This document shows positions 13,700 to 64,000 of a stretch of 64,000 nucleotides of DNA, one piece after another. The translations under genes and the position numbers were made by a program. Position 1 is the stretch's first letter; every line of letters begins with the position of its first letter. Below the pieces are notes generated by a model. The model searched no databases. It was not told the origin of the DNA and saw only the letters and a list, made by a program, of their open reading frames with translations. The DNA is from Pocillopora damicornis (Eukaryota). The stretch is taken from positions 1 to 64,000 of the forward strand of contig NW_020844538.1 in assembly GCF_003704095.1 (NCBI RefSeq). Direction: 5' to 3'.

Positions 13700-14639
13700 T
13701 CAACCAATGAAATTCATGACCACAAGATGGAGAATGATGCTGGCAAAGATAAAATCAGCAAATGCTCTCTCTGGAGAAATCCCTTTGAAATCAGAATAGT
13801 TGGCTGGGTTGCTTTGCACTCGTAGACAAACTGTAACAAAAAGTATTACACCATTAAACAAGAGAAATTGCTTCATAGGGGATCAATCATTCAGTGATTT
13901 GTTATAAGGCAAAACAAAGAAACTAGTAGACATGATTTGAAATCAAATGAAAAAATTATACATTAAATGTAAGTGCATAAAAGTGCAAAATAATACAATG
14001 CTAAAGCACAAAGCCACCATCACTCCAATTAAATTTCCTCTCTGTTCCTGTGCAACAGGAGTTGCAGGTAAAGCTTTGTCTTGAGCATATGTTAAATTCC
14101 ACCATTGTAGAACATTTGGCCATTAATTATGGTTTTGTTATTTTTTTCTCTCAAAATCAAGCCCACAAATGATCTTAAATATTTCAGAAAAACCAATGCA
14201 AATTGTGAGCTCAGTGTTTCCGGAAAATTACAGCAAATTGTTGGTTATAAAATTCTGTGCTAGAGTGGTATACTTCACTTACGCAAATACCACGTGTCTT
14301 GTAAGATCTTTCAATGTACGTGTCACACGCAGAAACTGAGACAGTAGATTGCCCACAATTTACTCGCAAAACATGCTAATATAACGAGTGAATATCAGCG
14401 TTCGCTCTATATATCTTCTTACCTCCTAAAACAAAAGATCCGACACAGGAAATAAATCCAGACAGGAATGAGTTGAATGGAAAAGTTCCCACTAAGCAAC
14501 AGTACACGAATTGAATGATTCCCGTTAGCATGATGTAAAACAGATATGCATCGACTATCTTGAGCTTCTTTGGTGTCGTCTGGTTGTATTCATCATAGAA
14601 TTTCACCAGGATGTTCTTTATGTTGGAGAAAGTATCCAT
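13700..14639 (-). CDS. DAD1: Defender against cell death 1 / oligosaccharyltransferase subunit OST2, 2 coding exons
   Basis: Exon 1 14639-14423 ([72 protein letters not shown], donor GTAAGA). Exon 2 13830-13700 ([47 protein letters not shown]). Very close to known DAD1 sequences. Confidence 0.97.
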
Positions 14640-14941
14640 ATTCGTATCCCCTGAGGTACGTGGTGATCTTTCCACACGACAAAGAGCTCCAAGAAAGGAA
14701 GAAGAATGAAATGCAAAGCATCATGGGTTTTGTTGACGTGTTGGACTGGTGCTAGTTTTAGAATTTTGGCGCCGAAAGTTTTTTCCTGATCGATGTGATT
14801 TTTGCGAAGATTTTTTAAATTACGCTGTGTTTGCTTCTTTATTCCTCTACCAGGATGTCGTGTTGGGAAGAGCTACAAACGAATTCGTAGATCAGAAACA
14901 AGGTTAACACAAAAAGGAACGCTACTTCGACGAAGAAAAAT
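14640..14941. promoter_or_regulatory. Bidirectional DAD1/GINS3 promoter with an E2F palindrome and a Staf/ZNF143-like site
   Basis: 302 bp between divergent ATGs. TTTTGGCGCCGAAA at 14764-14777 (overlapping inverted E2F TTTSGCGC sites). GCAAAGCATCATGGGTT at 14713-14729 (reverse AACCCATGATGCTTTGC) fits the Staf/ZNF143 consensus. Confidence 0.6.
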
Positions 14942-60700: not shown

Positions 60701-63700
60701 TTCTGCCTTGGTCAATCGTGGGAGTGAAAGGGTTAAATGTGACCATGTAGCTTACTATTTTACATGTGCAGTAATGAGATGCAGATGAAAGGTGATAATT
60801 TTGCTGCAGTGGTGAATTTTTTTTATATTTTTTATAGAATCATTTTACACGTCTGTCAGTGGTACAGGCAAAATTTGTATATTTTTGTTGAATGCAACTT
60901 GTTTAATTTGACATCTGATTGATGGTTGTCTGCATATGATCCGCAGGTTTCCCTTGGCAACAGAAGAAGAGTTGATTAAGAATAATGATGATTGTGCCAT
61001 CTGCTGGGATTCCATGGTTGCAGCAAGGAAGCTACCATGTGGTCATCTTTTCCATAAGTATGAAATTGTTTGAATTGTTCAAATTAATTTCCTCCAATGA
61101 GGAGCATTCCAACTTGAGCCTTTACTGTCCTTTTTACAGCTATATGTACACACTCTTTCTATCTCATGTTAATTCTTCAGTACTCAATATGGTAACAAGA
61201 ATTACTTCTGTACTCGATAAAACACCCATTGATGGTTAAAATGCTGATCAAGAACTTTTTTTCGGTTAGTTCTTGTCTCAGGTCGTGGCTGGAGAATGAC
61301 ACCTCCTGCCCTACCTGCCGCCAGTCACTTGCCAGCGATCTGCAGCCTGAGCAGGAGGAGCAGAGGCAATCAAGAGGAGTGGCTGCATTCATGATGGGGC
61401 GTGGGCTAAGAAGAAACCACTTTTTCCACTTTGATGGTGAGGTTAAAGCCATTTTCTCCTAATGGCCAAATAGTCAGACTGGGATGGTGGTAATTTAACA
61501 CCACTTTAGACAAGTTGCTTGTTACTTTGTAATTAAGAGAGTAAACCATTCTTTGCCATATTTTCTCTTTAGGTTCTCAGATAGCCAGCTGGTTTCCAAG
61601 CTTCTCTGTGGAGGTCATGCACACTGGAGTGGAAAATGCAGCTGAGGGTCAACTTCCAGAGAGCCGCATTGAAGCTATGGTAAATCTTTATCAAACAATC
61701 ACTCCATGAGCATACAATGGATATGAGATGACAAATAGCCAACAAGGCCTCATTGGCTAAAATCATCTCATATCCAACAATTGGTAGTGGAATAATTGGT
61801 TTATTAAAAATGCCCCAAAATAGAGATATATCTTCCCAACTTTATTTTGTAAGAACAAAGGGATTGTAACTGTATGAAAAATACTTCCCATTTAACTTGT
61901 CTTCATGTGTGTGCATAGTTTAATGGCTCATAACCCATGATGGCTAAGCCAATGAAAACTCTTGAATTGCATTATCCCAAGAACCAGTTTTTGATAATTA
62001 AGGATTTTCAGTCAATAATTTGTTTTTGTTTCTTCCAATCCTTTTTAACCATTTTTTTATTGTGCAATTTATCGGAATGAGCCAAGGAGCAACAGTCCAT
62101 TCATAATGTATTGTAATCAGTTGTGAGATTTACTGATGGATGACCAGGCTGAGTGAAAGTCATCGTCAGATTCAAGATCATCCAAGCATTACTCACTGTT
62201 AGAACTATGGTTCCTTTCCAGTATTTAGGTCATTGGATAATTTCACTCTGCTGTCAATTTCCTATTTAAAATTGACTAAGAATGGTGTGATGTTTATCTT
62301 TAGGCACACCAAGTACAGGCCATGTTTCCAAATATGCCATTCAACATCATTATGGAGGACTTAAGACACACTCACTCCCTTGAGGTCACCACTGATAATA
62401 TTTTGGAGGGAAACATAGCAGTGCCTTCTGTAAGTGATGTCCCTCAATTAGAATTGAAATATTGCAAGTGGGAGGATTTTGAAGTGGGGACCAAAATGAT
62501 AAACAGTGACAACAAGATAACTTTCTCTAAAGATCCCAAGCTAAAATATTACAATCTCCTTCAATGGCAAGTCTCTAACCATAGTAAGAACTTAAAGTCC
62601 TTTTGTTAATATGCACGTGCCAATCACGTGTAAAATTCATGCACATTACATTTTATATTATGGGCGAATTGAAACTGTAAATGTAGGTATCTTCTAAGAG
62701 ACTTAGATGGCAAAGGGGAATAACATCTGGTTTCTGCAGCGTATTCTGCTTTCCGCTGTATGCATGCTTACATACAAATATGTGCATGAACTTTGAAAAA
62801 AGGTTATTGAGAAATTGAAGGAGTGAAAGAAAAGTGAACCAAATAGGGTTTATTCTTTCCATCAGTAGTTAACTCTTTAACTCCCGTAGGTGACCAAGAC
62901 AGAATTTCTCCTTACTTTATCTGTACAATGTCATGCAAACAAGTGATGAGAATAAAGAAAAATATCAATTATGGGATATCTAATTGATCCAATACCAAAT
63001 TCTCCAAACTAACATAATGATAATCACTCTGAAGACAGTAAGGAGAATTAGTAATGAGGTCTTGGGAATTAAAGGGTTAATGTGATTGTCATGCTTTAAC
63101 TCACAGGTCGTGCTTCAACTCACAGGTTATCCTAATTTCTGAATCTTAACACTGTGACTTAATTTGCCTTGTTTAGGTCTGGACACCACCTGAGGAACAA
63201 TCAGAGGATTCAGAGCTCCTTCAGATAGCACACCCAGGTATGTGCTCAGAAAAGACTTTTTGTGCTAGGCTGGATGATATTCCAAGGAAGATGATTTAAT
63301 TTCTATATAAATCATCTAACCCTGGGATCCCAAGCCAAAAATGCTAGAAGTTGTTGTTAATGTAACAGGAACATGACCCTGGCCAGGCAGGTTACCCTAA
63401 TCCCACCTTGCAGCATTTACATGGCAAATTGTGACCCTGGCTGACAGTATTACCCTACCTCTCATACTGGACAATCTGCGGCAATCTGCCCAGGCAGGCT
63501 GCCCCACGTGTGTTGTAAACATGATCAACATAAGTTAAGGGATTTTATGGACAGATGGGTTACCCATCCTAGGCGTATCACTTCACTTACCTGGGGTGCC
63601 CCACCTCCATGTAAACAGGTCCTCAAACTCAACAGTGTATTTGGGTGAGGTGGGGCAAAGTGAACATCAATGCAGTCAGGTGGGAAAAATTAGCATCCCA

Positions 63701-64000
63701 CGAAACTCTTGCCACTTATCGTAGATATGCTTATGGATCCTTGCATACTCATATTTCAGACTCACTGACACCTTCAAATACACCTGAAGAAACTGAAAGC
63801 TCTACAAGTGAGACAGAACAGGACAGCACAGAAGCATCTAATAATGCGGAAGTGATGAGAGAACAGGCACTTGAAGAGGCTGCCTCGTTGGAGCAGCGTC
63901 CAAAGCGTGACGAGAGCCCACCACCTAATGAAACACCACCGGGAGAGAGATACAGGAGTGTATCGCCATCTTTGATGGAGTTTTCAACACAATCTTCAGT
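57748..64000 (+). CDS. AMFR: E3 ubiquitin-protein ligase AMFR/gp78, 3'-incomplete, one exon lost in an assembly gap
   Basis: Exons: 57748-57924 (MPLVFLEQLPLPSLQSY), 58013-58105 (VVFGDLRASELQ), 58731-58895 (DRFWNFIFYKFIFIFGVLNVQ...LCKDRFEY), 59650-59802, 59910-59950, 60256-60387, [gap], 60947-61057 (RING-H2 CAICWDSMVAARKLPCGHLFH), 61270-61436 (SCLRSWLENDTSCPTCR...NHFFHFDG), 61573-61679 (SQIASWFPSFSVEV), 62304-62429 (CUE domain, MFP), 63177-63237, 63760 to beyond 64000. Confidence 0.95.
62869..63080. mobile_element. piggyBac-type MITE, subfamily C, in an AMFR intron
   Basis: TTAACTCTTTAACTCCC...GGGAATTAAAGGGTTAA. Internal sequence resembles 34843-35052. Confidence 0.8.
63375..63623. mobile_element. 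Harbinger-like MITE fragment; an inverted relative lies at about 29747-29880
   Basis: End CCATGTAAACAGGTCC is the reverse complement of GGGCCTGTTTACATGG at 29747. Both share internal GGGTTACCC / GGTAACCC motifs. Confidence 0.55.

What the first reader, a model, noticed from the sequence alone, without database searches (positions are those of the whole stretch)
13700..64000. Gene neighbourhood matches human 16q and its 14q11 paralogon: a probable ancient metazoan linkage block
Seen in sequence: DAD1, GINS3, SLC38A7-like x2, MVD, PRMT7, NUDT7 and AMFR lie consecutively within 50 kb. From memory of human gene maps: GINS3 and SLC38A7 (16q21, close neighbours), SLC38A8 (16q23), MVD (16q24), PRMT7 (16q22), NUDT7 (16q23) and AMFR (16q13) are all on 16q. 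DAD1 is at 14q11.2, a region paralogous to 16q (e.g. NDRG2/NDRG4, MMP14/MMP15). Inference: these unrelated genes descend from one ancestral linkage group, and GINS3 next to SLC38A7 may be true microsynteny kept since the cnidarian-bilaterian split. The MATE gene (human 17p11) is the exception and may mark a translocation edge.
Basis: partly seen in the sequence, partly recalled or inferred. Interest (0 to 1): 0.7.

Follow-up and report, generated by a model that had tools for sequence, protein, structure and literature searches.

The report
Ancient housekeeping gene cluster in coral

Summary
The genes are real and in the stated order. The genome is a stony coral. Shared chromosome ancestry holds: all orthologues looked up fall in one Nematostella id range, three of them on one named chromosome, and human 14q11 and 16q are sister quarters of one paralogon. 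That much is textbook macrosynteny.

GINS3-SLC38A7 is adjacent across stony corals but 965 gene ids apart in Nematostella. The MATE gene is not a translocation edge.

A different, stronger signal is there. Robert et al. 2022 (supplement, block 2623, 'Planulozoa novel') lists DHRS1, DAD1, AMFR, PRMT7, MVD as five consecutive models in the hemichordate Ptychodera and together in Acropora. All five lie here within 64 kb, four in the same order. Chance is about 1e-7 to 3e-5 per window. So this is likely a real cnidarian-bilaterian microsyntenic block, catalogued but not found discussed in text. Tight packing around short divergent promoters is my preferred but unproven reason for its survival.

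The parts
1289..10215 (-). MATE/SLC47A-like transporter; outside the finding's range but listed in the block in Acropora
   Evidence: MatE E=1.8e-22; ends; internal exons not modelled; block rows
13700..14639 (-). DAD1, two coding exons; member of block 2623
   Evidence: DAD family on both exons; joint 13830/14423 in 4 of 4 RNA runs
14640..14941 (.). 302-base gap between the DAD1 and GINS3 start codons; likely bidirectional promoter
   Evidence: Gap and CpG o/e 0.85; RNA contig ends at 14685 (DAD1 side) and 14677 (GINS3 side) (contigs cannot prove start sites)
14942..16364 (+). GINS3/PSF3, two coding exons; member of block 2623
   Evidence: PSF3_N and Sld5; named homologues; spliced contigs 15350/16135
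19265..27000 (-). SLC38A7/8-like copy A, eight exons, faster-evolving tandem duplicate
   Evidence: tblastn; 71% identical to copy B over 467 positions; tree
27400..30200 (.). Repeat and transposon remnants between the two transporter copies
   Evidence: rva_4 integrase fragment below cut-off; 72 matches in the genome
31547..37901 (-). SLC38A7/8-like copy B, eight exons; head-to-head with MVD (877 bases)
38779..45297 (+). MVD (diphosphomevalonate decarboxylase); member of block 2623
   Evidence: MVD-like_N and MDD_C; PDB hits; GT-AG joints; stop
45414..55992 (-). PRMT7; member of block 2623; tail-to-tail with MVD (116 bases between stops)
   Evidence: PRMT7 best PDB hit E=7e-18 versus PRMT9 E=7e-4; joints
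56241..57023 (+). NUDT7-type CoA diphosphatase, single coding exon, sitting between the divergent PRMT7 and AMFR; not in the block rows seen
   Evidence: NUDIX; unspliced RNA contigs 56180-57238; 248-base gap to the PRMT7 start
57748..64000 (+). AMFR/gp78 E3 ligase, continues to about contig 64,428; member of block 2623. DHRS1(-) follows at about contig 72.7-77.1 kb
   Evidence: CUE; AMFR best PDB hit; DHRS1 sole PDB hit; positions

Best explanation
[quoted passage not shown] Shown: the coral order; the same five genes as consecutive models g876-g880 in Ptychodera, with DHRS1-AMFR-PRMT7-MVD in the same order; conservation of the wider run across stony corals; and only two surviving pairs in Nematostella (DAD1-GINS3, AMFR-DHRS1). 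Inferred: SLC38A7 and the intronless NUDT7 are later arrivals in the coral lineage or were lost from the cluster elsewhere; the SLC38A7 tandem pair is recent; in vertebrates the cluster was split by reciprocal gene loss between the 2R sister segments now at 14q11-12 (DAD1, DHRS1, METTL17) and 16q (AMFR, PRMT7, MVD, GINS3) and then scrambled (human positions recalled). The packing mechanism is inferred and untested; I put it at about 0.45 given an ancient cluster.
For: Block 2623 'Planulozoa novel', 30 of 75 rows seen plus one further row: Ptychodera scaffold433 g876 DHRS1, g877 DAD1, g878 AMFR, g879 PRMT7, g880 MVD, g881 METTL17, g883 TPX2, g885 SALL1; Acropora millepora DHRS1, AMFR, GINS3, DAD1, two MATE, PRMT7, MVD on one scaffold; Lingula DHRS1 g22067/68 and GINS3 g22071 on one scaffold; Lottia MVD, METTL17-type and TPX2-type on one scaffold. 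Chance that 5 of 9 coral neighbours fill 5 consecutive slots after scrambling: 3e-5, 2e-6, 1e-7 for 150, 300, 600 shared orthologues. That paper found 162 such blocks against 17-25 in shuffled genomes. Stony corals: Acropora cervicornis SLC38A7 KAK2559615 and GINS3 KAK2559616; Porites lobata GINS3, SLC38A7, NUDT7 CAH3167872/875/889 on one contig; Desmophyllum NUDT7 KAJ7374947 and GINS3 KAJ7374951. Nematostella: DAD1 4389/PSF3 4391, DHRS1 5082/AMFR 5085. METTL17 and TPX2 are also neighbours in this genome, on contig C2329. Packing: 5 of 8 neighbour gaps are 116-877 bases, 3 of 8 head-to-head, with CpG-rich gaps (o/e 0.83-1.01) beside CpG-poor gene bodies (0.15-0.22); GINS3 and transporter-A RNA contigs overlap at 18417-18446.
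Against: Nematostella keeps only 1 of the 7 adjacencies inside the window (3 of 10 with the downstream genes), and vertebrates have dispersed the genes (recalled), so any constraint is weak. Two of the three head-to-head partners here (SLC38A7/MVD, PRMT7/NUDT7) are not neighbours in the Ptychodera rows, so those particular promoters are not the conserved unit. Strand is not given in the table, gene-id order is taken as genome order, 45 of 75 rows were not seen and the file was cut when stored. The tight five-gene match rests on one draft hemichordate scaffold; multiplied over about 6000 windows the expected chance count is 0.19 to 0.0007 per species pair. Orthology rests on Pfam, PDB best hits and source names; a tree was built for SLC38 only.
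Confidence: 0.72

Rival explanations
1. The cluster is ancient but neutral: it persists in slowly rearranging lineages only because no inversion has yet broken it.
For: Broken in Nematostella and in vertebrates (recalled); the genes share no pathway; partners across promoters differ between coral and Ptychodera. Schultz et al. 2026 note that stable pairs can remain through neutral persistence (section read).
Against: Five-gene retention over more than 550 million years is at or beyond the upper end of what was seen between phyla: no colinear run above four genes among five focal species, and no blocks of four or more between Nematostella and Rhopilema.
Confidence: 0.35
2. One reading: the whole 50-kb run, with GINS3 beside SLC38A7, is the ancestral arrangement and is echoed on human 16q21.
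For: Adjacent in Acropora, near in Porites, compatible in Desmophyllum; three genes apart in human (recalled).
Against: 965 ids apart in Nematostella; SLC38A7 not among the Acropora rows of block 2623 and listed in block 3577 instead; chance that at least one coral-adjacent pair falls within four slots on 16q is 9-12%.
Confidence: 0.1
3. Only macrosynteny is real: the genes share an ancestral chromosome and the local match to Ptychodera is chance or an assembly artefact.
For: About 10-15% of such blocks also arise in shuffled genomes (17-25 of 162); a run of six 16q orthologues is expected 0.2-2 times per such chromosome.
Against: Per-window chance 3e-5 or lower; four genes colinear; partial support from Lingula, Lottia and the two Nematostella pairs.
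Confidence: 0.1
4. In bilaterians the genes are bystanders of a genomic regulatory block around Sall/Tshz, and the coral keeps the bystander part.
For: SALL1 is g885 beside the block in Ptychodera and TSHZ2 is in the block in Lottia.
Against: No developmental transcription factor was recognised in or next to the coral run; the nearest recognised one is an IRF about 100 kb past the window. A bystander role cannot explain retention in coral.
Confidence: 0.12

Closest known systems
Microsyntenic block 2623, 'Planulozoa novel', in the Syntenic Density Database of Robert et al. 2022 (PMC8851819, supplementary file 4)
   Same: Holds DHRS1, AMFR, GINS3, DAD1, MATE, PRMT7 and MVD in Acropora millepora; all seven are here within 77 kb.
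   Different: This genome is not among the rows seen. Only one MATE lies here; a second is on contig C2329 about 43 kb from METTL17-TPX2, the other half of the Ptychodera run. The paper's main text has no hit for METTL17 or TPX2.
Ancestral linkage group behind vertebrate paralogon 10 of Lamb 2021 (PMC8040251); called ALG/CLG D in Simakov et al. 2020, 2022 (the letter is recalled)
   Same: Quarters on human 14, 16, 20 and 8/18; A and B are 2R sisters. The rest of the contig carries further genes of these segments: DHRS4, TP53RK, DDX27, CSNK2A, RANBP9/10, POLR2C (some names and all positions recalled).
   Different: A linkage group predicts shared chromosome, not shared neighbours; the five-gene run goes beyond it.
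Conserved ancestral microsyntenic pairs (CAMPs) of Irimia et al. 2012 (PMC3514665)
   Same: Unrelated genes, short gaps, head-to-head bias; DAD1-GINS3 has this anatomy and recurs in Nematostella and Acropora.
   Different: The paper's main text has no hit for DAD1, GINS3 or PRMT7; its pair list could not be read. GINS3-SLC38A7 does not reach the four-lineage bar in what I could see.

Membership tests
Ancestral linkage group (paralogon 10 / ALG D) | Orthologues share one chromosome in a chromosome-scale outgroup | tested here: met
   Nematostella GINS3, NUDT7 and SLC38A7 on a 16,139,615-base sequence; MVD, DAD1, PRMT7, MATE, DHRS1, AMFR ids lie between those of NUDT7 (4076) and SLC38A7 (5356), assuming ids follow position
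Ancestral linkage group (paralogon 10 / ALG D) | Vertebrate orthologues fall on the paralogon's four quarters | tested here: inconclusive
   Quarters confirmed from Lamb's table for NDRG, NFATC, MMP; that table has no row for six window genes searched; their human positions are recalled
Ancestral linkage group (paralogon 10 / ALG D) | Reciprocal-best-hit or tree orthology | tested here: inconclusive
   One-way best hits fit for PRMT7, AMFR, MVD, GINS3, DHRS1; SLC38 tree makes the coral genes pro-orthologues of SLC38A7 and SLC38A8, with that vertebrate fork weak at 89/65; no reciprocal search
Ancestral linkage group (paralogon 10 / ALG D) | Assignment to the same group in amphioxus, scallop and sponge | not testable with these tools
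   No eukaryote genome but the window's own is held; supplements searched gave no named table
Microsyntenic block 2623 (Robert et al. 2022) | Three or more orthologues, each separated by at most five genes | tested here: met
   Seven block genes here with at most two recognised or candidate genes between neighbours; definition
Microsyntenic block 2623 (Robert et al. 2022) | Shared between cnidarians and bilaterians | tested here: met
   Rows for Acropora, Ptychodera, Lingula, Lottia (30 of 75 rows read); taken from the table, not re-derived from those genomes
CAMP, for GINS3-SLC38A7 | Four or fewer intervening genes in four or more lineages | tested here: not met
   Stony corals yes, human yes (recalled), Nematostella no, not in the block rows seen; other bilaterian invertebrates not seen; criterion
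CAMP, for DAD1-GINS3 | Four or fewer intervening genes in four or more lineages | tested here: inconclusive
   This coral, Acropora and Nematostella yes; no GINS3 in the Ptychodera rows seen; Lingula DAD1 row not seen; human no (recalled)
Genomic regulatory block | A developmental regulator flanked by bystander genes | tested here: not met
   None recognised in the coral run; SALL1 and TSHZ2 appear only in bilaterian rows
Genomic regulatory block | Conserved non-coding enhancers in bystander introns | not testable with these tools
   No DNA of other animals available for alignment

The most novel reading that the evidence does not exclude
DHRS1-DAD1/GINS3-AMFR-PRMT7-MVD-METTL17-TPX2 is one of the longest clusters of unrelated housekeeping genes kept from the cnidarian-bilaterian ancestor, held by shared promoters; in bilaterians it abuts Sall/Tshz, and after the second vertebrate genome doubling it was dealt out almost wholly between the sister segments 14q11 and 16q, so the coral run is a living template of a pre-vertebrate locus.
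Probability: 0.22. Interest if true: 0.62.

Novelty: new member of a known kind. Interest (0 to 1): 0.36.

Why it matters
Coral-human macrosynteny is established and adds nothing. The five-gene run is more useful: multi-gene order shared across phyla is rare, most described cases centre on developmental genes, and this one is made of housekeeping genes in an animal lacking CTCF-type domains. It gives a concrete, small locus for testing whether ancient gene neighbourhoods are held by promoter sharing or merely not yet broken. It is already an unnamed entry in a public table, so the gain is interpretation, not discovery.

Tried and rejected
GINS3-SLC38A7 as an ancient pair: rejected. MATE as a translocation edge: rejected. 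SLC38A7 x2 as SLC38A7 plus SLC38A8: rejected, both copies group with robust corals at 100/99. 16q enrichment as proof: P(6 or more of 8) is 0.011-0.044 at a base rate of 0.30-0.39, and 0.2-2 runs of six are expected per chromosome; the base rate comes from alpha retention of 38.9% and a hand count of about 38 of about 117 named Nematostella genes with recalled human positions. My first reading (macrosynteny only) was dropped. The homologue search with the SLC38 exon alignment gave only 11 hits among 704 candidates and no named bilaterian. Supplements with no hits: Schultz 2026, Lamb 2021 for the six singletons, Grau-Bove 2024 (one file unreadable); Irimia 2012 supplements not held. Whole-genome family searches missed METTL17 (later found by exons) and PSMG2; CIAPIN1 is on another contig, C2604. 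A CpG-rich stretch over the MVD and PRMT7 3' halves looked special but similar stretches occur over other genes. No earlier scan findings. Text searches for the cluster found no paper discussing it.
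Full report
What the window is. It is the first 64 kb of a 481,242-base contig, G000:C1173. Closest named protein relatives are stony corals, and the SLC38 tree places it among robust corals. Identity rests on Pfam, solved-structure hits and source names. RNA contigs from four runs of three studies show splicing of DAD1, GINS3, MVD and PRMT7 and an unspliced NUDT7. The two transporters are 71% identical and duplicated after the split from Orbicella; vertebrate SLC38A7 and SLC38A8 group together with weak support, so the coral pair does not mirror them (23 rows, none left out of the tree).

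Macrosynteny. No other animal genome could be searched, so I used accession numbers, contig lengths and published tables. In Nematostella, GINS3, NUDT7 and SLC38A7 sit on the same 16,139,615-base sequence. In the gene list of Cole et al. 2024 (PMC10946136; supplement rows and one 10,000-character part seen) the ids are NUDT7 4076, MVD 4226, DAD1 4389, PSF3 4391, PRMT7 4491, S47A1 4900, DHRS1 5082, AMFR 5085, RPB3 5310, S38A7 5356, DHRS4 5445, PRPK 5446; I assume ids follow position, as runs of consecutive older ids suggest. Lamb 2021 (PMC8040251; passages and supplement rows seen) puts human 14, 16, 20 and 8/18 in paralogon 10 and makes quarters A and B sisters. The rest of the contig carries DHRS1, DHRS4, TP53RK, DDX27, a calbindin-like gene, B3GALNT2, CSNK2A, a CLPTM1-family gene, RANBP9/10 and POLR2C (TP53RK, DDX27, calbindin, B3GALNT2 and POLR2C named from recalled sequence). 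With recalled human positions, 6 of 8 window genes and 4 of 10 further genes have a 16q copy; large-family members (TRPA-like, RAS-like, IRF, GAL3ST, P450, P4HTM-like, GPR158-like, Schlafen-like, trypsin, CAP, a UBE2) were left out of this count. Given a base rate of 0.30-0.39, a run of six is expected 0.2-2 times per chromosome. So the 16q echo is ordinary conserved linkage of the kind described by Simakov et al. 2020 and 2022 (passages seen) and Zimmermann et al. 2023 (passages).

GINS3 and SLC38A7 are consecutive in Acropora cervicornis and three accessions apart in Porites lobata; NUDT7 and GINS3 are four apart in Desmophyllum. The run is therefore conserved across stony corals. In Nematostella only 1 of 7 adjacencies in the window survives (DAD1-GINS3), and 3 of 10 when DHRS1, DHRS4 and TP53RK are added; GINS3-SLC38A7 is 965 ids apart. 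At least one coral-adjacent pair would fall within four slots on 16q in 9-12% of shuffles. MATE lies inside the same Nematostella range and inside the Acropora block, so it marks no edge in cnidarians; its human position is better read as one of the 29-43% of genes with variable synteny (inference).

What changed my reading. The supplementary database of Robert et al. 2022 (PMC8851819; one section, passages, and supplement rows seen; file cut when stored) has block 2623, 'Planulozoa novel', with 75 matching rows, of which I saw 30 plus one further row. Ptychodera flava scaffold433 carries g876 DHRS1, g877 DAD1, g878 AMFR, g879 PRMT7, g880 MVD, g881 METTL17, g882 zinc finger, g883 TPX2, g885 SALL1. 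Acropora millepora carries DHRS1, AMFR, GINS3, DAD1, two MATE genes, PRMT7 and MVD. Lingula has DHRS1 copies and GINS3 three to four ids apart; Lottia has MVD with METTL17-type, TPX2-type, CIAPIN1, PSMG2 and TSHZ2 on one scaffold. Read backwards, the coral order is DHRS1, one or two unidentified ORFs, AMFR, NUDT7, PRMT7, MVD, SLC38A7 x2, GINS3, DAD1, MATE: DHRS1-AMFR-PRMT7-MVD is colinear with Ptychodera and DAD1 has changed sides. The chance of 5 of 9 neighbours filling five consecutive slots is 3e-5 to 1e-7 per window, or 0.19 to 0.0007 per genome pair. The window was chosen for its 16q echo, not for Ptychodera, so the per-window figure, times some tens of species, is the fairer one. The other half of the Ptychodera run also persists here: METTL17 (three exons hit Rsm22 in model order, each below cut-off) faces TPX2 on contig C2329, with a second MATE about 43 kb away. 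SLC38A7 has two rows in the stored file, both in block 3577.

How it likely works. Shown: 5 of 8 neighbour gaps are under 900 bases, three are head-to-head, the gaps are CpG-rich while most gene bodies are CpG-poor, and RNA contigs of neighbours abut or overlap. From general knowledge this is the signature of constitutive, body-methylated genes with compact promoters. Inferred: such packing leaves few breakpoints that spare both genes, which slows local shuffling; Irimia et al. 2012 report the same head-to-head bias in ancient pairs (passages). AMFR and PRMT7 point away from each other with single-exon NUDT7 between them and are consecutive in Ptychodera, which suggests a later insertion into a shared promoter region. 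Against a strong constraint: Nematostella and vertebrates have broken the cluster, and strand data for Ptychodera were not available. Neutral persistence remains a serious rival.

Novelty. The linkage group is known, and the block is a catalogued but unnamed database entry that already includes a coral. Six text searches found no paper discussing it; subscription journals are mostly not covered, and the unseen supplements of Irimia 2012, Simakov 2022, Zimmermann 2023 and Schultz 2026 (2 files searched, no hits) may list these pairs. Lin et al. 2024, Braso-Vives et al. 2022 and Grau-Bove et al. 2024 were seen as passages only and gave nothing on these genes. Verdict: observation confirmed, interpretation partly right for the wrong pair, modest interest.

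Noticed in passing
G000:C1173 about 72.7-84 kb (L003, L004): DHRS1 and DHRS4 are head-to-head (about 1.2 kb), followed by TP53RK; DHRS4-TP53RK is also adjacent in Nematostella (5445/5446), DHRS1-DHRS4 is not. Both DHRS genes are near each other on human 14q11-12 (recalled).
   Followed up: partly
L025-L026 (C1173 about 300-312 kb): Schlafen-like gene head-to-head with CSNK2A; the same pair is NV2.4298/4299 in Nematostella.
   Followed up: partly
L028-L039 (C1173 about 322-442 kb): About 110 kb of tandem CAP/GAPR1-like domain exons, some with long low-complexity linkers; named from recalled motifs, not scanned.
   Followed up: no
L006-L007 (C1173 about 102-122 kb): Ankyrin-repeat, TRPA-like channel gene with two or three single-exon rhodopsin-type GPCR genes apparently nested in its introns on the same strand.
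   Followed up: no
L020-L024 (C1173 about 242-292 kb): Three tandem GPR158/179-like receptors with Cache-type sensor domains.
   Followed up: no
L051-L053 (C2329 about 399.7-415 kb) and L047 (356 kb): METTL17-TPX2 tail-to-tail, with PFDN4, COTL1-like and a second MATE nearby: the other half of the Ptychodera run.
   Followed up: partly
window 56241-57023: NUDT7 is single-exon and ends in -SRM, a likely peroxisomal targeting signal (motif recalled); possible retrocopy inserted between PRMT7 and AMFR. A near-identical database protein (P0001) has a different, longer N-terminus.
   Followed up: partly
window 16364-19430: GINS3 RNA contigs run about 2 kb past the stop and overlap contigs of the convergent transporter copy A at 18417-18446.
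   Followed up: no
window 42000-49500: CpG-rich stretch (o/e about 0.8) over the convergent 3' halves of MVD and PRMT7, between CpG-poor 5' halves; similar stretches occur over other genes.
   Followed up: partly
L002:5123-5461 (-) and L002:7750-8239 (+): Unidentified short ORFs between AMFR and DHRS1, one with a hydrophobic start and a basic tail; no convincing Pfam hit.
   Followed up: partly
window 12792-13190 and 27439-27836: Short reading frames that resemble decayed retroelement remnants (recalled resemblance; no Pfam hit).
   Followed up: no
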